The notes beneath the pieces are model-generated. The model was not told the DNA's origin. It saw only the letters and a program-made list of their open reading frames with translations, and ran no database searches. 64,000 nt of DNA from Bacilli bacterium (GTDB taxonomy: Bacteria; Bacillota_I; Bacilli_A; RF39; UBA660). Within the stretch, counting starts at the first letter, position 1; the number at the start of each line of letters is the position of its first letter. Made by a program: the position numbers and the translations under genes. The stretch covers positions 1,668-65,667 of the forward strand of contig JAUVZX010000001.1 of NCBI GenBank assembly GCA_030602345.1, in the 5' to 3' direction. Below, piece by piece: positions 1,424 to 51,576 of this stretch.

Positions 1424-1679
1424 AATTCACCCGCAAACTATTTATATTATACTATACTAGGCTTTTATAAACAACAAAAAAACCCAGAAAAGCGACGCCA
1501 AAACGATAAAACCTGATCTTCCAGGGGGATGACTTTTTATACCATTAGGATCCTCAACTAAATGAGTGTTCAACACAAGTATAAGTTGAAGTCTTCCAAT
1601 CGTTACTACTTAGCGATTTTCATATATGACAATCGTCTTTTCTAGGTTAATTTAATTTTACCACTTATTAATATAATAT

Positions 1680-31310: not shown

Positions 31311-31384
31311 TGGTGCCGGATAACAGAGTTGAACTGTTCACTGACCCTTACCATGGGTCTGTTATGCCCCTTAACTAATCCGGC
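31311..31384 (-). tRNA. tRNA-Thr (anticodon GGT)
   Basis: Manual cloverleaf: acceptor GCCGGAT/ATCCGGC, anticodon stem GACCC/GGGTC, loop ATGGTAA, T arm AACAG-TTCAACT-CTGTT, discriminator A, then CCA. 74 nt. Confidence 0.85.
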
Positions 31385-31390
31385 AAATAG

Positions 31391-31467
31391 TGGCGTCCCC
31401 GATTGGATTTGAACCAACGCTCTAACCCTTAGGAGGGGCTTGTTTTATCCAGCTAAACTACGGGGAC
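31391..31467 (-). tRNA. tRNA-Arg (anticodon CCT)
   Basis: Manual cloverleaf: acceptor GTCCCCG/CGGGGAC, D stem GTTT/AAAC, anticodon stem AGCCC/GGGTT, loop CTCCTAA, T loop TTCAAAT, then GCCA. 77 nt. Confidence 0.85.
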
Positions 31468-33139: not shown

Positions 33140-33225
33140 TGGTGCGAGAGACGGGACTTGAACCCGCATAGCATTACACCACAAGCCCCTCAAGCTTGCG
33201 CGTCTACCAATTTCGCCACCCTCGC
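33140..33225 (-). tRNA. tRNA-Leu (anticodon GAG), long variable arm
   Basis: Manual fold: acceptor GCGAGGG/CTCTCGC, anticodon stem CAAGC/GCTTG, loop TTGAGGG, extended variable arm, T arm CGGGTTCAAGTCCCG, then ACCA. 86 nt. Confidence 0.85.
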
Positions 33226-43338: not shown

Positions 43339-44826
43339 AATATTGTATAGCAAAAATTCTTAGAGTACCAAAACAAAAGAAAACGAAACAGTTAAATACT
43401 ATGAGTTATTGTATAGCAAAAATTCTTAGAGTACCAAAACATTCTTCCAACATATCTAAGGTTGGTGTGTGTTATTGTATAGCAAAAATTCTTAGAGTAC
43501 CAAAACTTACTTTCAAAATCATTACCATCTTTATTTGTTATTGTATAGCAAAAATTCTTAGAGTACCAAAACTGATAAGTCAAACATTCCGTCAAATGAC
43601 TGGTTATTGTATAGCAAAAATTCTTAGAGTACCAAAACACTTGCCTTTTTGTGTATAATTCATTAAAGGTTATTGTATAGCAAAAATTCTTAGAGTACCA
43701 AAACAAATTGCTAATGGTTCGGTTTTGCCTATCGGTTATTGTATAACAAAAATTCTTAGAGTACCAAAACTCTCCATTTAAAATAAAGGGATATATTATA
43801 GTTATTGTATAGCAAAAATTCTTAGAGTACCAAAACTTAACGAAGGTGGTTTATTTCCAACTAATGGTTATTGTATAGCAAAAATTCTTAGAGTACCAAA
43901 ACCAAATCTACGCTCTAATAAATAGTCAAAGTGTTATTGTATAGCAAAAATTCTTAGAGTACCAAAACCTTGCTTTAGTATCATACTTAGGCGCTAAAGT
44001 TATTGTATAGCAAAAATTCTTAGAGTACCAAAACATCTATTAATCATTGGTCTAGTTCTCCAAAGTTATTGTATAGCAAAAATTCTTAGAGTACCAAAAC
44101 CCTCTTGACCTTGATAGTTATCAAAAGGATGTTATTGTATAGCAAAAATTCTTAGAGTACCAAAACAGTGGCACACTTATGGGAAAAGATTTATTTGTTA
44201 TTGTATAGCAAAAATTCTTAGAGTACCAAAACCCTCATTATTTAATTATTTTAAACAAATGCGTTATTGTATAGCAAAAATTCTTAGAGTACCAAAACCT
44301 TGGATCTTTAACAGCATTGTCATTTATTGTTATTGTATAGCAAAAATTCTTAGAGTACCAAAACCGGTAGCATTAGGATATCACAATTTGAAAAGTTATT
44401 GTATAGCAAAAATTCTTAGAGTACCAAAACTTAATTCACATATATTTGTAAATATATTATGTTATTGTATAGCAAAAATTCTTAGAGTACCAAAACGATG
44501 AACAACCTGAGTTATATGCTAGATATGTTATTGTATAGCAAAAATTCTTAGAGTACCAAAACGACGATTAAGCAATATTCAAGAGTTTACTGGTTATTGT
44601 ATAGCAAAAATTCTTAGAGTACCAAAACGTAGACCGTTAAAGTTTAAATCGGTTGAAGGTTATTGTATAGCAAAAATTCTTAGAGTACCAAAACAATGTT
44701 TGCCCTCCTTAATTATTTCTTGTAGTTATTGTATAGCAAAAATTCTTAGAGTACCAAAACCAACAGACACATCAACGAATCGAGCTGCATGTTATTGTAT
44801 AGCAAAAATTCTTAGAGTACCAAAAC
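43339..44826 (-). CRISPR. Type II-A CRISPR array: 23 repeats of 36 nt (GTTTTGGTACTCTAAGAATTTTTGCTATACAATAAC in the transcribed orientation) and 22 spacers of 30 nt
   Basis: I enumerated the repeats by hand. All spacers are exactly 30 nt. The leader-distal repeat (43339-43374) carries 2 substitutions. The repeat at 43735-43770 carries one G-to-A variant. Leader and cas genes lie on the high-coordinate side, so transcription is on the minus strand. Confidence 0.97.
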
Positions 44827-44886
44827 CTCAAACTTATTTTATCATATTGATGATATATTGTCATCTAAGTTTGATTTTTAAAGTGT
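44827..44886 (-). promoter_or_regulatory. CRISPR leader with putative promoter (-35 TGACAA, 16-bp spacer, -10 TAAAAT) about 12 nt upstream of the first repeat
   Basis: 60-bp AT-rich segment between the csn2 stop and the newest repeat. Hexamers read on the minus strand. Confidence 0.45.
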
Positions 44887-45729
44887 TTATAAGTTTTTTT
44901 CTAGCGACATTATTCTATCATTTGAATCTCCAATTATATACTGAGAAATCAGTTTTTTTAATTCTTCTATTTCACAGTGAAAGGGAAGATTCATTCCTAT
45001 TTCATAATTTAAGTTATATTCATCGTAAACATCAATTATTTTATTATTATAAATACAATAATCCTTCATGTCAGATGGAGTGTGATTAGTTTCAGTGGAA
45101 ACAAAAACTTTAATATTTTCATTTTCCAAAAAATTTATAGCATTTATAATTTTAGGTGTTAAAGAGCCAATGTATGTAATAAAAATATTTTTGTCAGTTG
45201 TTAAAGACAGTTTTTCGATTAGATTCAGTTGGAATATTATTAAATCATCATATTCTAAGTCATATATATTACATTCTAAACCCATTTTTTTCATTTTACA
45301 TTTAAGCATTTTATATAATTCTAATATATCTATTTCATTAAATGATAAGTTTAATTTTAATTCTTCAGATAAAATAATATTTTTATTGTAATTTGACGTT
45401 TCTTTGGTTAAAACATCACTGATATTTAACATTTCTTCATCTTCAGAATTTTCTAAATATTTTAGCAGAAGCGTTTTAGCCCCTAATTTTATTTCATTTT
45501 CTATGTTAAAATATGGGTTTAAAATAAAGGATAAAGTGTTTCTACTATTTATTTTTTGTTCATTTAAATAAATTGATTCTACTCCTTCTCTTAATGAAAA
45601 TTCACTAAAATCCGAGTTTGAACATATTTGATGAATTTTTTGAAAAACTGAAAACATTTTTGTTCCGTTTTTTTCAAAAAAAATTTTTTTCTTATCTATA
45701 GAGAAGGATAATTCATTATTACCCTTCAT
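44887..45729 (-). CDS. csn2: Csn2-family CRISPR-associated protein (type II-A marker)
   Basis: 280 aa, directly between cas2 and the leader. Local similarity to Csn2 (EYDDLIIFQLNLIEKL and IFITYIGSL resemble the S. pyogenes Csn2 EYDEITILELIKALG and LLIFVNSGAF segments). Confidence 0.6.
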   Translation of the reverse strand: MKGNNELSFSIDKKKIFFEKNGTKMFSVFQKIHQICSNSDFSEFSLREGVESIYLNEQKINSRNTLSFILNPYFNIENEIKLGAKTLLLKYLENSEDEEMLNISDVLTKETSNYNKNIILSEELKLNLSFNEIDILELYKMLKCKMKKMGLECNIYDLEYDDLIIFQLNLIEKLSLTTDKNIFITYIGSLTPKIINAINFLENENIKVFVSTETNHTPSDMKDYCIYNNKIIDVYDEYNLNYEIGMNLPFHCEIEELKKLISQYIIGDSNDRIMSLEKNL

Positions 45730-45760: not shown

Positions 45761-46096
45761 TTAAAATAACATAAATGGGTTAGGTGTAATTTTTTCTTCT
45801 AGTTTGCTTTTATTTCCAACTAAAATTTCCATTCTGGTATATTGCTTTTCAGTAACTAACATTATTCTTATAGATCCTTTTTTAGGAACAAAATTTTTCA
45901 AAGTTGATATATGTTTCTGAGCAGAGTCTCTATTTGAAAATATTTTAGAATAAACAGAATATTGAATCATCATATATCCGCTTTTTATTAATCTTTTTCT
46001 AAATAGACTATATATTCTTCTTTCTTCCTCAGTTACGACAGGTAAATCAAAAAATAATATTATTCTCATAAAAACATCATTCATAAATTTTAACAC
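45761..46096 (-). CDS. cas2: CRISPR-associated endoribonuclease Cas2
   Basis: About 100-aa Cas2 (MRIILFFDLPVVTEEERRIY...). The true start is probably at 46069 (MRIIL); the track's form overlaps the cas1 end. Confidence 0.85.
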   Translation of the reverse strand: MLKFMNDVFMRIILFFDLPVVTEEERRIYSLFRKRLIKSGYMMIQYSVYSKIFSNRDSAQKHISTLKNFVPKKGSIRIMLVTEKQYTRMEILVGNKSKLEEKITPNPFMLF

Positions 46097-46970
46097 CAGG
46101 AAATTTTATTTCATCAATATTTCCTGTTTCAAAAAAACTAATTATACTATCAACCATTATTATAATAGCGTTATTAATTGTATGTATCTTTCCATCAATC
46201 ATGACCTTTTTAGTTGTTTGAGCTACTAGTTCAACCCTAATATTCCTCGTGAAAACATCATTTATTTTTAAATTTTTTAATACATACTGATCAACAATAG
46301 GCCTAAAAACTTCAATAACGTCATCAGCTAAGTTGAAAGGGTTTGAAGGTCCTCTATGAAAAATCCCGAAATGTGGGTTTAATCCTCTAGCCACTAAAGC
46401 TCTACATATTTGAGATCTCAAGATACTATAGCCATAATTTAATGCTGAATTTCTTACATCATCAGATTTTCTTAAGAAATCATCACCAAATAATTCTCTG
46501 AAATATATTTTTGCAGCTAGTCCTTCCCTATTTGTTTTGTCATTAAGTTCAACTTCTTGATAATATTTATCTAAAATTGAAATATACTCTGGATTAGCAT
46601 CAAAATATTCCATTACATTTTTTTGGTTTTTAATTTTAGCCTTTACAATTTCTTGCCAAATATACATTTTGCTATTTTCTTCCCATTCTAATTGTTTGCG
46701 AAGTTGAAAAGATGAATTATAATTACCAGAATAAGGAAATATTAATGCTGATGGTAAATGAAAAGGATCACAAATAACAATGTTAATATTATATTCCATA
46801 CACTTGCTTATTAAAGATGCTGACATAACTAAACTATGATTATCGATTATAATAGAATTTACGTCACTCAAAGGAATAGTTATTTTTTCTATTCCCTTTG
46901 TTATTTTCAAATTATCTAAATATAAATTTAAATAATCTGAACTTTCAATATAAATTATTCTCCAACTCAT
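46077..46970 (-). CDS. cas1: CRISPR-associated endonuclease Cas1 (type II)
   Basis: 297 aa with NSALNYGYSIL and GLNPHFGIFHRG motifs. Confidence 0.9.
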   Translation of the reverse strand: MSWRIIYIESSDYLNLYLDNLKITKGIEKITIPLSDVNSIIIDNHSLVMSASLISKCMEYNINIVICDPFHLPSALIFPYSGNYNSSFQLRKQLEWEENSKMYIWQEIVKAKIKNQKNVMEYFDANPEYISILDKYYQEVELNDKTNREGLAAKIYFRELFGDDFLRKSDDVRNSALNYGYSILRSQICRALVARGLNPHFGIFHRGPSNPFNLADDVIEVFRPIVDQYVLKNLKINDVFTRNIRVELVAQTTKKVMIDGKIHTINNAIIIMVDSIISFFETGNIDEIKFPGVKIYE

Positions 46971-47075
46971 AAAAACAAAAAGAGACTCTAAAGAGTCTCG
47001 ATTTCGGCATATTGCCTTATTTTGATAGTTCCTAAGAACTTTTGCTATACAGTAGTCCGTCGACTACAAAATAAT
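46971..47075 (-). ncRNA. tracrRNA (anti-repeat, nexus and terminator) between cas9 and cas1
   Basis: On the minus strand, UGUAUAGCAAAAGUUCUUAGG is complementary to crRNA repeat nt 11-31 (21 bp including 2 G-U pairs). UCAAAAU pairs with repeat nt 1-7, forming the lower stem after an internal bulge. There is a nexus-like AAGGCAAUAUGCC hairpin. The terminator is GAGACUCUUUAGAGUCUC followed by UUUUUGUUUUU. Confidence 0.7.
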
Positions 47076-47104
47076 TATAACATTTTTCGTTAAAATAATC
47101 AAGT

Positions 47105-50100
47105 CTAATTTAATAGTAATTTAGGTTCATTTTCAAAAGGAAGTTTATACATATTTCCCAATACATCAAAAGCCATTTTTTGAATATTAATGTTTTTCTT
47201 TATATTTATATATGGTTGTGGTTGAACTTTACCATTTTTATAAACTTTTTTCTCATTTGGGATTTTGTATGAAATGATATTAGATTCCAAGTTTTGAACT
47301 CCTGAATACAAAACTACTCCTTTATAGGTTGACTCTTCTACTTTTCCTACAAATAAAGGTTCATTTTTGTACACACTAAACAAGAATTTACAATTATTAT
47401 TGATCCCTCTTTTTTGCAACATGTCTTTATAATCATTTTCGTCAATATAATATTTTCCGTCTTTGTTTTTAATTTCATGTTGATAGATTTGAATTATTAT
47501 ATTTTCATTTGTTTCGTTTCTATATATGTCTATTCTATAGGGATTTAAAGATAGTAACACTACTTTATTTTCAGTATTATATTTATGACTAATGTCTAAA
47601 TGGTTTCCAAGTTTACTTTCATAATATTTAACTGTCTCTATTTTTGGACCATTTCCTTTTTTAGATTTTTTTCTTATAAAATCTCCATGCTTTAATTTAT
47701 ATTCTAAAAAGGGATTTTCAGCATACGAATATTCTTGTGTTATTTTTTTTAATAAATTAAAACTTTCGACATCGTATTTAAACATAAACAAATTTTTTAG
47801 TTTATCTAAATTGTCTTCTTTAAACCAATTAGCAACAGCATTATCATCATATATATTTTTTTTCGATATTATATATTCTTTTTGATCTTCCGGCTTGATT
47901 CTAACACTATATATAGTTTGATCACTCAAACCTTTGTTAAATTTTTTATCGACTTTCTGAGAAAATTTTACATTTAATTTATCTAAATTATTAATGAAAT
48001 TTAAATATTGACTATCATTTTTAATTTTGATATCTTCTGGTTTTATTATTTCACCAGTTTCGTCATTTACTAAAAGCTTATCTACTCTCGATATTTTTAT
48101 TAAATCATCGAAGAAGTTAAGTTTTTTAATTCCCGCAATCAACAAAGCATCTATAGCGTGATGAGAATTGTCTTCTTCTCTTACTTTCGGAAGATTACTT
48201 TGTTTCCTAAAATAATTAGTAACTATTCCTTTAATCGTATAGACTTTTGTATCAATATTATTTTGGTTATAATATTCAGAAAGTAAATTTAAAATATTTC
48301 TTGAGGCATATCGAGTATCTACTAAATTTCTATTAATAAAATCTTTTCTAACGCTAAATTTATTTATATCCGATTCATTTAAATAATTTTTCATCTTTCG
48401 ATAGTCTATTTTGCCATTTTTATTTAAGTTTATAACTCTATTTTTAAATTGATCATATTTACCAATTTTACTTAAATATTGATATGGGCTTTTTTGACCT
48501 TTTTCTTGATTTTCCTCTCTATAAACTAGGCATTTATTTTTGAAAGAATCATCTAAAGATATAGAAAGAGGTATTATATGATCTATTTCATATATATATG
48601 GATTTTCAATTAAATCATTTAAGTTTATTGATTTGCCAGAGTATATACAAACACCGTCTTGCTCTAAATATAATCTTACTTTTTGTTTGATTTCAATATT
48701 AATTTTCCCTTTATATTTTTTACTTATTTCATCTAGAACTTGTAAATTTATCTCTTCATTATTTTTTTGAAGTTTATTTATTCGGTTTTTTTGTTCTAAA
48801 CTATTCTTATCTCTAGGCATTTCTATTACTATACTATCTAATTCACCATATTTTTTTCTTACTGCATTAATTATTTTAATGGTTTCATTTTGAGATCTCC
48901 TCACAACGGGAGATAATACATCTTCAATATTAGAAGGTATAGTTTTACCAATAACGTCCTTATTTAATTGTTTATAGCCATTTAGGCTGATGATTTGCAT
49001 TTGGTTGTTATTTGTTTCAAGTAAATCCGGAAGCATCTCATAAATCGCTCTAAACGACAAAGAATGATATGTAGAAAATCCATTTAAAGTTGAAATTCTT
49101 TCTATGACATTTTGATCGAAGATTTTTATATCTATATTTTTTATTTTTTTAATAGCTTCTATTCTTTCATTTTGACCTTTTTTCATAGTCAATATCTCTG
49201 AGATTTCATCTATTATTTTTTTGTCATTTAATATTTTTTCGCTAAACCCTTCTTTTTTCACTAAATCAATAAAAACTTTATATCCATCAAACTCTGTTAA
49301 TATGGGCTCACTCTTTTTATTTAATCTAAAGCCAGATATTTCTTCTAAAGGCAAATCTAAAAACTTAGCAAGCTCTTTGGGAGTTATTTTTGCTTTTTTA
49401 TCTATAAAATTATAAATTATTTCTTCTTTTTGATTTTGAGAAAGCTGTTGATCTCCGTCAAACTTCAAATTATTTAGATCATTTAAAAAATTAAAAAGCT
49501 GTGCTGAATAAGATTTTTGAGGTGCTCTTTTTTCTTCTAAATATATAGAACATTTCCCTCTCATTTTTTCAATCAAATCGATGGGTTCTGCACCTATATA
49601 AGCATATCTTCCGTAAGGAGTTGGAGAATTAGGACCACCAGGTCCTTCATAATATTTTCTTTTTCTTTTTACTATTTCGATTATTTCTTCTGTCAATTCA
49701 TTAGAAATTTCATTTGTTAAACATAATTGTTTTATTTCTTTTATATAATCATCTGTAGTAAAAATATTTTGATTTCCTTTTAATTTTCCATCATTTAATC
49801 TCTTTAATTGCAGTTCACACACAAAATAATTATTTTGTGATAAATATTTTTGGTTTTCCGATAATGATTTTTTAGAAGTTTCGCTATCTTTTATCTCTTG
49901 TTCATTTTCAGGAATTATATCACTATCTACCAATCCTCTTTTTTTAGTAATATGTAATATGCAATTTGCAAACTCGTTATTATTAAGTTTGTGTTTTAAG
50001 CCTCTTGTTCTTAATTCATATATGTTTTTAGAATATTGAAATTCTTCATCAATATATCCATTTCTTTTCAACAAGTCTTTCATCGCTTCTATTCGAGTTC

Positions 50101-50281
50101 TTTTTCTTCTAATTAACCTTCTTCCAGAACGAAAGCCTCTTCTTTCTTCATTGTTTTTTGCGGTTCCCTCTTCAAAAAGTCTAACTCCACAGTCTACTAC
50201 TTCAGATGTTTCAAGATCGATCAATCCCCATCCAACAGATGCAATTCCAACGTCCAAACCAAGCACTAATTTTTTCTGCAT
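47105..50281 (-). CDS. cas9: CRISPR-associated endonuclease Cas9, compact type II-A ortholog (1058 aa, SaCas9-like)
   Basis: RuvC-I LGLDVGIASVGWGL, arginine-rich bridge helix, HNH (DIDHIIPLSISLDDSFKNK), RuvC-III HHAIDALLIA. The N-terminus aligns closely with Staphylococcus aureus Cas9. Promoter TATAAT and RBS GGAGG lie in the 50282-50323 interval. Confidence 0.95.
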   Translation of the reverse strand: MQKKLVLGLDVGIASVGWGLIDLETSEVVDCGVRLFEEGTAKNNEERRGFRSGRRLIRRKRTRIEAMKDLLKRNGYIDEEFQYSKNIYELRTRGLKHKLNNNEFANCILHITKKRGLVDSDIIPENEQEIKDSETSKKSLSENQKYLSQNNYFVCELQLKRLNDGKLKGNQNIFTTDDYIKEIKQLCLTNEISNELTEEIIEIVKRKRKYYEGPGGPNSPTPYGRYAYIGAEPIDLIEKMRGKCSIYLEEKRAPQKSYSAQLFNFLNDLNNLKFDGDQQLSQNQKEEIIYNFIDKKAKITPKELAKFLDLPLEEISGFRLNKKSEPILTEFDGYKVFIDLVKKEGFSEKILNDKKIIDEISEILTMKKGQNERIEAIKKIKNIDIKIFDQNVIERISTLNGFSTYHSLSFRAIYEMLPDLLETNNNQMQIISLNGYKQLNKDVIGKTIPSNIEDVLSPVVRRSQNETIKIINAVRKKYGELDSIVIEMPRDKNSLEQKNRINKLQKNNEEINLQVLDEISKKYKGKINIEIKQKVRLYLEQDGVCIYSGKSINLNDLIENPYIYEIDHIIPLSISLDDSFKNKCLVYREENQEKGQKSPYQYLSKIGKYDQFKNRVINLNKNGKIDYRKMKNYLNESDINKFSVRKDFINRNLVDTRYASRNILNLLSEYYNQNNIDTKVYTIKGIVTNYFRKQSNLPKVREEDNSHHAIDALLIAGIKKLNFFDDLIKISRVDKLLVNDETGEIIKPEDIKIKNDSQYLNFINNLDKLNVKFSQKVDKKFNKGLSDQTIYSVRIKPEDQKEYIISKKNIYDDNAVANWFKEDNLDKLKNLFMFKYDVESFNLLKKITQEYSYAENPFLEYKLKHGDFIRKKSKKGNGPKIETVKYYESKLGNHLDISHKYNTENKVVLLSLNPYRIDIYRNETNENIIIQIYQHEIKNKDGKYYIDENDYKDMLQKRGINNNCKFLFSVYKNEPLFVGKVEESTYKGVVLYSGVQNLESNIISYKIPNEKKVYKNGKVQPQPYINIKKNINIQKMAFDVLGNMYKLPFENEPKLLLN

Positions 50282-50323
50282 AAAACCTCCATTTTTTATT
50301 AATTATACACGAAAAATAACATT

Positions 50324-50346
50324 AAAAAAAGAGAATATTAATTCTC
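50324..50346 (-). terminator. Rho-independent terminator of tig, overlapping its stop codon, separating tig from cas9
   Basis: GAGAAT-ATTA-ATTCTC hairpin followed by a run of 7 T on the minus strand. Confidence 0.5.
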
Positions 50347-51576
50347 TTTTATTATTTCTAATGCACGTCTTAATTGCATATCATATTTTAAAGTGTCTAA
50401 TCCTCCGAATAATTCTAAGAATTTAGCTTCTTCCATGTTATATTTTTCTGCCATAGTTTTAGCTTCTTTTTGAACTTCTTCTTCAGTTACTTCTATTTTT
50501 TCTGCTTTTACAATTTCATCTAATAACAAACGATATCTAACGCGGTTTGTTGCTTCAGGTTTCATTTGTGTTTCTAATTGTTCTTCAGTTGTATTTGTAA
50601 ATTGATAGTATTGTTCTAAAGTAACACCTTGTAGTTTTAAATTATCTTCATATTGGTGCATCATTCTATGAATTTCTGATGAAATCATAGCATCTGGAAT
50701 AATTACTTCCATATTATCTGCTGCTTTTGCTAATAATTGTTCTACATATTGGTTTTCTACTTCTACTTCTTTTCTAGCTTTGATATTTTCTTTTAATGCT
50801 GCCACTAAAGAGTCAACATCATTAACACCTTCCATAGCTAAGTCTTCAAAAAATTGTTCATCTAATTCTGGATGAAGTTGTGCTGTAACTTCATGTACTT
50901 TAATCTTAAATACTACTTTTTGTCCTTTTAATTCTTCACTTGGATATTCTTCAGGGAATGTTACTTCGATATCTTTCTCATCACCTTTTTTAAGTCCAAC
51001 TAATTGTTCTTCAAAACCTGGAATAAAACTTTGACTTCCTAATTGTAAGTCATATTTTTCAGCTTTTCCGCCTTCAAACGCTACTCCATCTTTAAATCCT
51101 TCAAAATCAATTGTCACTACATCATGGAACTCTGCTGGGCCTTCTTTAACAACACTTTCTTCAAAACGATGTTGTAACATGTGTATTTCATCATGAACTT
51201 CTTCATCAGTTACTTCTACACTTGGTTTAGCAATTCCTAATTTTTTATATTTTCCTAATTTAACTTCAGGTGCAGTTATCAATTCAATTGTAAATTCGAA
51301 TGATTCTAATGTTAAGTTTCCTAATTTAACTTGTGGTTCTGCTACAATATTAATATCTTTGTTTTCTTGTAATGTTTTAACATATACTTCATTCATAGCA
51401 ATATCTGCAGCATCCATTAATAAAGATTCTTTTCCATATTTTTTCATGAATACATCTTTTGGGGCATGTCCTGGTCTAAAACCATCAATTGTTACTTTTT
51501 TATTTGCTCTTTCAAAAGCTTTATCAATAGCAGTTTCCCACTCTTGACCTTCTATTTTAAATTTAAATTCTCTCAT
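50338..51576 (-). CDS. tig: Trigger factor
   Basis: 412 aa, N-terminal ribosome-binding domain, FKBP-type PPIase middle, C-terminal arm. Confidence 0.85.
   Translation of the reverse strand: MREFKFKIEGQEWETAIDKAFERANKKVTIDGFRPGHAPKDVFMKKYGKESLLMDAADIAMNEVYVKTLQENKDINIVAEPQVKLGNLTLESFEFTIELITAPEVKLGKYKKLGIAKPSVEVTDEEVHDEIHMLQHRFEESVVKEGPAEFHDVVTIDFEGFKDGVAFEGGKAEKYDLQLGSQSFIPGFEEQLVGLKKGDEKDIEVTFPEEYPSEELKGQKVVFKIKVHEVTAQLHPELDEQFFEDLAMEGVNDVDSLVAALKENIKARKEVEVENQYVEQLLAKAADNMEVIIPDAMISSEIHRMMHQYEDNLKLQGVTLEQYYQFTNTTEEQLETQMKPEATNRVRYRLLLDEIVKAEKIEVTEEEVQKEAKTMAEKYNMEEAKFLELFGGLDTLKYDMQLRRALEIIKEN

What the first reader, a model, noticed from the sequence alone, without database searches (positions are those of the whole stretch)
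46971..47075. tracrRNA located between cas9 and cas1, reconstructed by hand
The 134-bp cas9-cas1 intergenic space, read on the minus strand, contains a 21-nt anti-repeat pairing with crRNA repeat nt 11-31. A second 7-bp segment, UCAAAAU, pairs with repeat nt 1-7 (GUUUUGG). The two are separated by an asymmetric bulge. This is the lower-stem/bulge/upper-stem architecture that Cas9 recognises. It is followed by a nexus-like GGCAAUAUGCC hairpin and an intrinsic terminator, GAGACUCUUUAGAGUCUC plus U-tract, ending at the cas1 start. This directly gives an sgRNA design for the compact Cas9.
Basis: seen in the sequence. Interest (0 to 1): 0.55.

Follow-up and report, generated by a model that had tools for sequence, protein, structure and literature searches.

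The report
tracrRNA gene between cas9 and cas1
The 134-base gap between cas9 and cas1 very probably encodes an ordinary tracrRNA, the helper RNA that pairs with CRISPR repeats and loads Cas9; it is a new sequence of a well-known kind, with a conserved 5' hairpin I found described nowhere.

Summary
On the minus strand, window 46971-47067 carries these modules in order:
- a conserved sigma-70-type promoter just upstream (TTGATT, 17 nt, TGtTATAAT)
- a 21-nt anti-repeat pairing with repeat nt 11-31
- an AAC bulge
- AA plus the GGCAAUAUGCC nexus
- GAAAUC plus a terminator that ends at the cas1 ATG

This is the best anti-repeat site in the 64 kb. It is also the only hit of a covariance model built from relatives.

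In 40 of 46 related loci with arrays, the best anti-repeat lies in the same gap on the cas9 strand. All 16 modelled intramolecular pairs show compensatory changes. The repeat and anti-repeat co-vary at almost every position.

The locus is type II-A: an SaCas9/St1Cas9-like Cas9 of 1058 aa, Cas1, Cas2, a divergent short St-type Csn2, and 23 repeats.

The tracrRNA position and architecture have been known since 2013, and the 3' half matches biochemically validated St1-type guides. So this is a new member of a known kind, and no expression data exist.

Mildly new: the 5' hairpin, often with a GACG loop, and cas1 starting directly after the terminator with no ribosome-binding site.

The parts
47097..47102 (-). 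-35 hexamer TTGATT of the tracrRNA promoter, starting 2 nt after the cas9 stop codon
   Evidence: Promoter scan gives 10/12 matches with a TG extension. A -35 of the form TTGaca/TTTACA sits at the same distance in most relatives.
47074..47082 (-). Extended -10 element TGtTATAAT
   Evidence: Among 72 distinct upstream regions, 61 have a 5/6 or 6/6 match to TATAAT. In 33 the hexamer ends exactly 6 nt before the RNA model start.
47052..47067 (-). 5' hairpin GUAGUC-GACG-GACUAC, beginning at the predicted transcription start (G 47067)
   Evidence: Folds. RNAalifold finds it on the MAFFT alignment. All 6 pairs show compensatory changes, with 93.6% of cells paired over 71 distinct sequences. The GACG loop recurs on unrelated stems.
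47031..47051 (-). Anti-repeat, upper stem: UGUAUAGCAAAAGUUCUUAGG pairs with repeat nt 31-11
   Evidence: It is the best anti-repeat site in the window. Positions 11-31 co-vary with the repeat across 37 distinct repeat/partner combinations.
47028..47030 (-). tracrRNA side of the internal loop (AAC), opposite unpaired repeat C10
   Evidence: Cofold. Repeat position 10 is unpaired in 35 of 37 combinations, and is a C in 34 of them.
47019..47027 (-). Anti-repeat, lower stem: UAUCAAAAU pairs with repeat nt 9-1
   Evidence: Position 7 is seen as G-U, G-C, C-G, U-A and A-U; position 8 as U-A and C-G.
47006..47018 (-). AA junction plus nexus hairpin GGCAAUAUGCC
   Evidence: third pair C-G 40, G-C 29. 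The same AUAAGGC...AUGCCGAAAUC string occurs in validated St1-type tracrRNAs.
46971..47005 (-). GAAAUC linker, terminator hairpin GAGACUC-UUUA-GAGUCUC and U-tract UUUUUGUUUUU, ending one base before the cas1 ATG
   Evidence: Terminator scan. Seven pairs, all with compensatory changes. Coordinates.
47105..50281 (-). cas9 (1058 aa), SaCas9/St1Cas9-like
   Evidence: TIGR01865, E 7e-190. Full-length matches to SaCas9-type PDB chains at E about 1e-172 and to St1Cas9 at 5e-158. RuvC and HNH catalytic columns are conserved.
46077..46970 (-). cas1 (type II). No Shine-Dalgarno sequence; the start codon abuts the tracrRNA terminator.
   Evidence: TIGR03639, E 1e-90. Upstream sequence shown.
45761..46096 (-). 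cas2
   Evidence: TIGR01573, E 2e-24.
44887..45729 (-). Divergent short St-type csn2 (280 aa)
   Evidence: No direct Pfam, NCBIfam or PDB hit. Profile-profile comparison gives probability 99%, E 5e-18, against same-position genes that hit PF16813.
43339..44826 (-). CRISPR array: 23 repeats of 36 nt and 22 spacers of 30 nt. The last repeat is degenerate. The leader, with a promoter-like site, lies at 44827-44886.

Best explanation
Window 46971-47067 (minus strand) is the tracrRNA gene of a complete type II-A CRISPR-Cas9 locus of the SaCas9/St1Cas9 kind.

Inferred mechanism, by analogy with characterised type II-A systems:
1. A primary RNA of about 90-97 nt starts at G 47067 and stops at the hairpin plus U-tract that ends at the cas1 ATG. 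It is driven by its own sigma-A-type promoter (TTGATT, 17 nt, TGtTATAAT).
2. Its anti-repeat hybridises with each repeat of the pre-crRNA, which is transcribed from the same strand. This forms a 9-bp lower stem, a C10/AAC internal loop and a 21-bp upper stem.
3. Cas9 binds this duplex, together with the AA junction, the GGC nexus and the terminator hairpin.
4. Host RNase III cuts the upper stem. This removes the 5' hairpin from the tracrRNA and releases individual crRNAs.
5. The resulting Cas9:crRNA:tracrRNA complex cleaves matching DNA next to a PAM.

The 5' hairpin starts at the predicted transcription start and abuts the duplex. It most likely stabilises the primary transcript or caps the duplex end.

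Shown here: the sequence anatomy, its uniqueness in the window, positional conservation, covariation, and homology of the proteins. Inferred: transcription, processing and Cas9 loading.
For: 1. Locus content. cas9, cas1, cas2, an St-type csn2 and a 23-repeat array all lie on the minus strand.
2. Uniqueness. The anti-repeat scores 41, against 31 for the next-best site in 64 kb, and 2 of 300 shuffled repeats reach 41.
3. Pairing energy. Cofolding with the repeat gives -57.8 kcal/mol, 26.3 kcal/mol better than the two monomers, with exactly the lower stem / bulge / upper stem geometry.
4. Signals. It has the only terminator-like site in 8 kb and a 10/12 TG-extended promoter.
5. Position in relatives. 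In 40 of 46 related loci with arrays the best anti-repeat is in the cas9-cas1 gap on the cas9 strand.
6. Covariance model. Model R1 hits the window once (103.9 bits). It gives 75 further hits across the related loci, all on the cas9 strand.
7. Intramolecular covariation. 96.7% of cells are paired, against 42-50% with slid partners. All 16 pairs show compensatory changes. RNAalifold on an unfitted MAFFT alignment finds the same three hairpins.
8. Intermolecular covariation. Repeat nt 1-9 and 11-31 co-vary with their partners across 37 distinct combinations, and position 10 is unpaired in 35 of them.
9. Promoter conservation. The hexamers keep a fixed register 6 nt before the RNA start.
10. Known guides. 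The 3' module AUAAGGCnnnAUGCCGAAAUC plus one terminator hairpin matches tracrRNAs used successfully in vitro for S. salivarius, S. suis and Facklamia Cas9 (PMC7606464, supplementary file 4).
11. Known position. The cas9-cas1 gap is one of four typical tracrRNA positions, described for three type II-A subclusters (PMC3737331).
Against: - There are no transcript data of any kind. The organism is an unnamed, apparently uncultured bacterium.
- No Rfam family matches the region at its gathering score. The best match is a spurious Atu_C8 hit, 23 bits against a gathering score of 50.
- The nexus stem is short, 3-4 bp.
- The terminator has only 7 pairs and a G interrupts its U-tract.
- The covariation alignment (A3) was fitted to the model, which leans towards the structure.
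- No protospacer was found for three spacers, so activity of the system is not shown.
- Only 64 kb of the genome was available, so a second tracrRNA elsewhere cannot be excluded.
Confidence: 0.93

Rival explanations
1. The RNA is real but is not made mainly from its own promoter. Instead it is the 3' untranslated region of the cas9 mRNA. No terminator separates cas9 from it, so tracrRNA would be released by RNase III or other processing. After that cut, the 5' hairpin would be the protective 3' end of the cas9 mRNA.
For: No terminator-like site lies between the cas9 stop and the tracrRNA terminator. cas9 transcripts must therefore run through this region. The hairpin sits directly 5' of the duplex that RNase III would cut.
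Against: A TG-extended -10 and a -35 are conserved in fixed register, 6 nt before the hairpin, in most relatives. This includes loci where they overlap the end of the cas9 coding sequence. The two copies that lack a promoter-like hexamer (second copies in L014 and L023) also have the weaker model scores, and the L014 copy has a degraded upper anti-repeat. The two routes are not mutually exclusive.
Confidence: 0.1
2. The element is a decaying or non-functional relic, either a degenerate repeat or a disused tracrRNA copy. The working tracrRNA would lie outside the 64-kb window.
For: Some relatives carry two copies. L014 and L023 each have a copy upstream of cas9 with a promoter and a gap copy without a promoter-like hexamer. 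In L074 the only model hit is upstream of cas9.
Against: The window copy has an intact promoter, 30 of 31 possible pairs with the repeat, and an intact nexus and terminator. It is among the highest-scoring model hits. No other anti-repeat or model hit occurs anywhere in the 64 kb, including upstream of cas9, where tig lies only 56 nt away.
Confidence: 0.03
3. The complementarity to the repeat is a chance match in AT-rich DNA, and the hairpins are only the cas9 terminator.
For: The window is 27.6% G+C. 2 of 300 shuffled repeats reach the same ungapped score somewhere in 64 kb.
Against: The match lies in the one gap where relatives have it and on the right strand. It continues into a 9-bp lower stem. 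It co-varies with the repeat across 37 combinations and is the only covariance-model hit in the window.
Confidence: 0.01

Closest known systems
St1-type tracrRNAs (Streptococcus thermophilus CRISPR1 Cas9; S. salivarius, S. suis and Facklamia hominis Cas9 of clade V in Gasiunas et al. 2020, PMC7606464)
   Same: - 36-nt repeat starting GUUUU.GUACUCU.
- AUAAGGC...AUGCCGAAAUC nexus and linker, nearly identical in sequence.
- A single terminator hairpin.
- An St-type Csn2 at the same position in the locus.
- Cas9 matches St1Cas9 chains full-length at E 5e-158.
   Different: - The upper-stem sequence differs completely.
- Here the lower stem reads GUUUUGGUA:UAUCAAAAU, against GUUUUUGUA:UACAAAGAU in St1.
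- Cas9 is shorter (1058 aa against about 1121-1142 aa).
- Csn2 is shortened and too divergent for Pfam.
- The published tracrRNAs in that table start at the anti-repeat, so it is unknown whether they carry the 5' hairpin.
Staphylococcus aureus Cas9 guide RNA (Ran 2015 and Nishimasu 2015; sequence recalled from memory, not retrieved here)
   Same: - SaCas9-type chains are the best PDB matches: SaCas9 itself (5axw/5czz) at E 7e-172 over residues 1-1056, top chain 8zcy at 7.7e-174.
- As I recall it, the same duplex geometry: a 9-bp lower stem, one unpaired C on the repeat side, a 3-nt bulge on the tracrRNA side, and AAGGCAAAAUGCCG as nexus.
   Different: - As I recall it, the S. aureus tracrRNA lies upstream of cas9, not between cas9 and cas1.
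- The region 3' of the nexus differs: GUGUUUAUCUCGUCAACUUGUUGGCGAGA there, GAAAUC plus one hairpin here.
Streptococcus pyogenes tracrRNA (Deltcheva 2011; Rfam RF02348)
   Same: The mechanism is assumed to be the same: anti-repeat pairing, RNase III co-processing, and the AAUAAGGC junction and nexus motif.
   Different: - It lies upstream of cas9 on the opposite strand.
- It has two extra 3' hairpins and a different bulge.
- No Rfam family reaches its gathering score on the window element.
tracrRNA genes in the cas9-cas1 gap (Chylinski et al. 2013, PMC3737331)
   Same: The same position. That paper lists it as one of four typical locations and finds it in three type II-A subclusters.
   Different: That paper found little conservation of tracrRNA structure overall. 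Within this Cas9 clade the whole RNA, including a 5' hairpin, is alignable and co-varies.

Membership tests
tracrRNA of type II CRISPR-Cas | An anti-repeat outside the array that is complementary to the CRISPR repeat, on the strand able to pair with the pre-crRNA | tested here: met
   30 of repeat nt 1-31 pair, all except C10. It is the best site in 64 kb. Array orientation follows from the degenerate last repeat and the cas-proximal leader.
tracrRNA of type II CRISPR-Cas | Location inside a locus with cas9 and a repeat-spacer array | tested here: met
tracrRNA of type II CRISPR-Cas | Nexus stem-loop shortly after the duplex, and a Rho-independent terminator | tested here: met
   Both hairpins co-vary in relatives.
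tracrRNA of type II CRISPR-Cas | Co-evolution of the anti-repeat with the cognate repeat among orthologous loci | tested here: met
   37 distinct combinations, with compensatory changes at most of positions 4-34.
tracrRNA of type II CRISPR-Cas | Expressed as a small RNA from its own promoter | tested here: inconclusive
   A conserved promoter consensus sits in fixed register, but no transcript data are available.
tracrRNA of type II CRISPR-Cas | RNase III co-processing with pre-crRNA, and a requirement for Cas9 cleavage | not testable with these tools
   Needs RNA-seq or northern blots and in vitro cleavage assays.
Rfam tracrRNA family (RF02348, S. pyogenes-like) | Match to the covariance model at its gathering score | tested here: not met
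   No tracrRNA hit even at E up to 10. This is expected for a different tracrRNA lineage.
St1/Sa-type (Gasiunas clade V) guide RNA architecture | Repeat starting GUUUU.GUAC; AA junction; GGC...GCC nexus; GAAAU(C/U) linker; single terminator hairpin | tested here: met
   Compared with the tracrRNAs in PMC7606464, supplementary file 4.
Type II-A CRISPR-Cas | A cas9-cas1-cas2-csn2 operon | tested here: met
   cas9, cas1 and cas2 by NCBIfam. csn2 only by profile-profile comparison with PF16813-positive genes at the same position: probability 99%, E 5e-18.

The most novel reading that the evidence does not exclude
The 16-nt hairpin at the very 5' end of the primary tracrRNA is a functional module of tracrRNAs in this Cas9 clade that has not been described. 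Its stem co-varies, and a GACG tetraloop recurs on unrelated stems in Bacilli MAGs, Listeria, Carnobacteriaceae and Bacillaceae. It lies directly against the repeat:anti-repeat duplex.

Possible roles:
- a 5' stabiliser against 5'-end-dependent decay
- a cap that fixes the end of the RNase III substrate
- the protective 3' end of cas9 mRNA after RNase III cleavage

In addition, the tracrRNA terminator ends at the cas1 ATG and cas1 has no ribosome-binding site. The terminator may therefore double as an attenuator that keeps the adaptation genes at a low level.
Probability: 0.35. Interest if true: 0.45.

Novelty: new member of a known kind. Interest (0 to 1): 0.3.

Why it matters
In practice, the finding supplies the guide-RNA scaffold for an uncharacterised compact Cas9. 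That Cas9 is 1058 aa, and its nearest relative in 5.8 billion proteins is 61% identical. PAM and activity screens could therefore start directly.

Biologically it adds little. tracrRNAs of this architecture and position have been known since 2013, and existing pipelines predict them routinely.

Two side observations are modest leads on how tracrRNA stability and expression of the adaptation genes are set in St1/Sa-like loci:
- the conserved 5' hairpin with a GACG loop at the transcription start
- the terminator abutting a cas1 that lacks a Shine-Dalgarno sequence

Tried and rejected
- **Rfam.** A permissive search of the locus and a gathering-threshold search of the whole window found no tracrRNA family. 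The only hit on the region was a spurious sub-threshold Atu_C8 match.
- **First genome scan.** Scanning named genomes with the single Cas9 sequence found nothing. The alignment-based second scan worked.
- **Anti-repeat scan.** A sliding duplexfold scan timed out. I replaced it with a vectorised ungapped pairing scan.
- **280-aa ORF.** Direct searches with NCBIfam, Pfam, PDB sequences, a PDB profile and the 5.8-billion-protein word search gave only the protein itself. The ORF was identified only through genes at the same position in relatives plus profile-profile comparison.
- **Organism name.** Cluster look-up returned none.
- **Protospacers.** Exact searches in IMG/VR for three leader-proximal spacers gave no match, so there is no PAM inference.
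- **Guide sequences in papers.** A search for AAGGCAAAATGCCG returned only plasmid-backbone hits. The St1Cas9 preprint text does not hold the guide sequence.
- **Literature on the hairpin.** Searches for a hairpin 5' of the anti-repeat found nothing. This is a weak negative, because matching is literal.
- **Readings considered and rejected.** Chance complementarity, an orphan degenerate repeat, and the hairpin as a cas9 terminator (it has no U-tract and lies downstream of the promoter).

Full report
**What is at the site.** All features lie on the minus strand. In order they are trigger factor (50338-51576), cas9 (47105-50281, 1058 aa), a 134-nt gap (46971-47104), cas1 (46077-46970), cas2 (45761-46096), a 280-aa ORF (44887-45729), a CRISPR array, and RNase J.
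- The array has 23 repeats of 36 nt, GTTTTGGTACTCTAAGAATTTTTGCTATACAATAAC, separated by 30-nt spacers. It runs from 44826 to 43339.
- The last repeat is degenerate, and a promoter-like site lies in the cas-proximal leader. So the array is read from the same strand as the cas genes.
- Cas9 matches TIGR01865 at E 7e-190.
- It aligns end to end with SaCas9-type PDB chains at E about 1e-172 and with St1Cas9 at 5e-158.
- The RuvC and HNH catalytic columns are conserved in an alignment with 29 relatives.

**Check of the observation.** Reading the gap on the minus strand from 47067 gives GUAGUCGACGGACUAC-UGUAUAGCAAAAGUUCUUAGG-AAC-UAUCAAAAU-AA-GGCAAUAUGCC-GAAAUC-GAGACUCUUUAGAGUCUC-UUUUUGUUUUU, followed directly by the cas1 ATG.
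Two further pairs (U8-A, A9-U) extend it to 9 bp.
- That leaves repeat C10 unpaired opposite AAC.
- The duplex geometry is, as I recall it, that of the SaCas9 guide. This comparison is from memory and was not retrieved here.
- Cofolding the repeat with the 97-nt RNA gives -57.8 kcal/mol, which is 26.3 kcal/mol better than the two monomers. It reproduces lower stem, bulge, upper stem, nexus and terminator.
- The RNA alone folds with a z-score of -4.1 against dinucleotide shuffles.
- The site is the best anti-repeat in the 64 kb on either strand, scoring 41 against 31 for the next best. Only 2 of 300 shuffled repeats reach 41 anywhere in the window.
- The terminator is the only terminator-like site in the 8 kb scanned.
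- A TG-extended promoter, TTGATT-17-TGtTATAAT, ends at 47074. That places the likely start at G 47067.

**Evidence from relatives.** The exact Cas9 occurs in one NCBI contig and one Logan contig and carries no name. The nearest relative is 61% identical and syntenic (tig-cas9-cas1-cas2); the next is 51% identical.
- An alignment-based scan of species-representative genomes returned 80 loci. Most are uncultured Bacilli, Acholeplasmataceae and Erysipelotrichaceae MAGs. The rest include Listeria, Alkalibacterium, Carnobacterium, Bacillaceae and Lachnospiraceae.
- Almost all have a gap of about 100-200 nt between cas9 and cas1.
- In 40 of the 46 loci where I could define a 36-nt repeat, the best anti-repeat outside the array lies in that gap on the cas9 strand.
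- I built a covariance model from 15 hand-trimmed sequences. It hits the window once (46971-47067, minus strand, 103.9 bits). It gives 75 further hits across the related loci, all on the cas9 strand and nearly all in the gap.

**Covariation.**
- On the model-fitted alignment of 71 distinct sequences, 96.7% of cells are standard pairs, against 42-50% when partners are slid by 1-3 columns.
- All 16 modelled pairs show compensatory changes, and none of 500 shuffles reaches the covariation score.
- That alignment leans towards the model. However, RNAalifold on the unfitted MAFFT alignment finds the same three hairpins, with 12 of 14 pairs compensated.
- Between molecules, over 37 distinct repeat/partner combinations, repeat nt 1-9 and 11-31 stay paired through many double changes. 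Position 25 is seen as U-A, G-C and C-G. Position 30 is seen as G-C, A-U, U-A and C-G. Position 7 is seen as G-U, G-C, C-G, U-A and A-U.
- Position 10 is unpaired in 35 of the 37 combinations, and is a C in 34 of them.
- This is the signature of a duplex under selection. It also settles the 9-bp lower stem.

**Promoter.**
- In 72 distinct upstream regions, 61 have a 5/6 or 6/6 TATAAT and 28 have the TG extension.
- In 33 the hexamer ends exactly 6 nt before the first base of the RNA model, preceded at the right distance by TTGaca or TTTACA.
- In several loci these elements lie inside the end of the cas9 coding sequence.
- I therefore favour independent transcription. cas9 read-through transcripts must also contain the element, because no terminator precedes it.

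**Locus type.** The 280-aa ORF has no direct Pfam, NCBIfam or PDB match, and the word-based search found no homologue.
- An iterative search of ORFs at the same position in the related loci links it to 260-350-aa genes.
- The longer of these genes match Pfam PF16813 (Csn2, subfamily St) at E values from 3e-28 to 4e-57.
- A profile-profile comparison of the short group with the long group gives probability 99%, E 5e-18, over 269 columns.
- The locus is therefore type II-A with a shortened, divergent St-type Csn2.

**Comparison with what is known.**
- Chylinski et al. 2013 list the cas9-cas1 gap as one of four typical tracrRNA positions. They report it for three type II-A subclusters (PMC3737331).
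- Supplementary file 4 of Gasiunas et al. 2020 gives tracrRNAs that worked in vitro for clade V Cas9s. The S. salivarius, S. suis and Facklamia RNAs share with the window RNA the string AUAAGGC...AUGCCGAA(A/U)U(C/U), followed by one terminator hairpin (PMC7606464).
- Fusing repeat nt 1-14 or 1-20 through GAAA to the matching part of the tracrRNA gives scaffolds that fold as intended.
- Rfam's own tracrRNA family does not match. That family represents the S. pyogenes lineage.
- The element is a new sequence member of a known kind.

The RNA begins with a 6-bp hairpin, GUAGUC-GACG-GACUAC, directly followed by the first paired anti-repeat base.
- Its stem co-varies, with all 6 pairs compensated and 93.6% of cells paired.
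- The GACG tetraloop recurs on quite different stems (GUGAUC, GUGUUC, GUCCUC, AGCAAG, GAGGAA). It also recurs inside the longer loops GA-GACG-UC and GUAAG-GACG-CUUAC. These cases span Bacilli MAGs, Listeria, Carnobacteriaceae and Bacillaceae.
- In the Lachnospiraceae group the anti-repeat extends to repeat nt 35, and the modelled hairpin is weak or overlaps the anti-repeat.
- I found no description of this hairpin in the tracrRNA surveys I read or searched. This is a weak negative.
- Its role is inferred only. It could be a 5'-terminal stabiliser, as known for other Firmicute RNAs (general knowledge). It could cap the end of the RNase III substrate. It could become the 3' end of cas9 mRNA after cleavage.

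**cas1 expression.** The cas1 ATG follows the terminator U-tract with no Shine-Dalgarno sequence, whereas tig, cas9, rnj and greA have one. Expression of cas1, cas2 and csn2 therefore seems to depend on read-through of the tracrRNA terminator. This is inference.

**Limits.**
- No expression, processing or cleavage data exist.
- Three leader-proximal spacers have no exact match in IMG/VR, so activity and PAM are unknown.
- Only 64 kb of the genome could be inspected.

**Verdict.** It is an ordinary tracrRNA of the St1/Sa type for a new, compact Cas9. Interest is low to moderate. The conserved 5' hairpin and the junction between terminator and cas1 are the only mildly novel points.

Noticed in passing
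window 47052-47067 (-): A 5' hairpin sits at the predicted transcription start of the tracrRNA. Its stem co-varies in relatives, and a GACG tetraloop recurs on unrelated stems, in at least 23 of 71 distinct sequences when the extended loops GAGACGTC and GTAAGGACGCTTAC are counted. I found no description of it in the papers searched.
   Followed up: partly
window 46962-46999 (-): The cas1 ATG (46970) follows the terminator U-tract directly and has no Shine-Dalgarno sequence. tig, cas9, rnj and greA in the same window have GGAG-type sites. cas1-cas2-csn2 expression appears to need read-through of the tracrRNA terminator.
   Followed up: partly
window 44887-45729 (-): The fourth cas gene (280 aa) has no Pfam, NCBIfam or PDB hit, and the word-based search of 5.8 billion proteins found no homologue. 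Profile-profile comparison shows it to be a shortened, divergent St-type Csn2 (PF16813 relatives).
   Followed up: yes
L014 5796-5898 and 9268-9375; L023 182-277 and 3494-3584; L074 5789-5914: Some related loci carry two tracrRNA-like copies. One lies upstream of cas9 and has a promoter. The other lies in the cas9-cas1 gap and lacks a promoter-like hexamer; in L014 its upper anti-repeat is degraded. These look like intermediates in relocation of the tracrRNA gene. In L074 the only hit is upstream of cas9.
   Followed up: partly
L003 5210-5706 and 11556-12117; L024 5334-5830 and 11650-12147: Two relatives have a second 8-repeat array with the same repeat and orientation, about 300-800 nt upstream of cas9, in addition to the array after csn2. 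The window has none; tig lies 56 nt upstream of cas9.
   Followed up: partly
window 50282-51576 and L002 4697-9201: The CRISPR locus sits between trigger factor and RNase J. The nearest relative (61% Cas9 identity) has the same greA-tig-cas9 synteny, which suggests an old chromosomal insertion in this lineage.
   Followed up: no
window 43737-43772 (-): One internal repeat carries a C-to-T change (TTTTTGTTATAC instead of TTTTTGCTATAC). This would turn the G24-C pair with the anti-repeat into a G-U pair.
   Followed up: no
window 1477-1651 (-); 31314-31467 (-); 33143-33225 (-): A 6S RNA (48.8 bits, just above the gathering score of 46.4) and three tRNA genes. The window is 27.6% G+C, while the tracrRNA is 36% G+C.
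   Followed up: no
window 44695-44790 and 44563-44592 (-): Cores of spacers 1, 3 and 4 (counted from the leader end) have no exact match in IMG/VR viral contigs, so no target or PAM could be inferred.
   Followed up: partly
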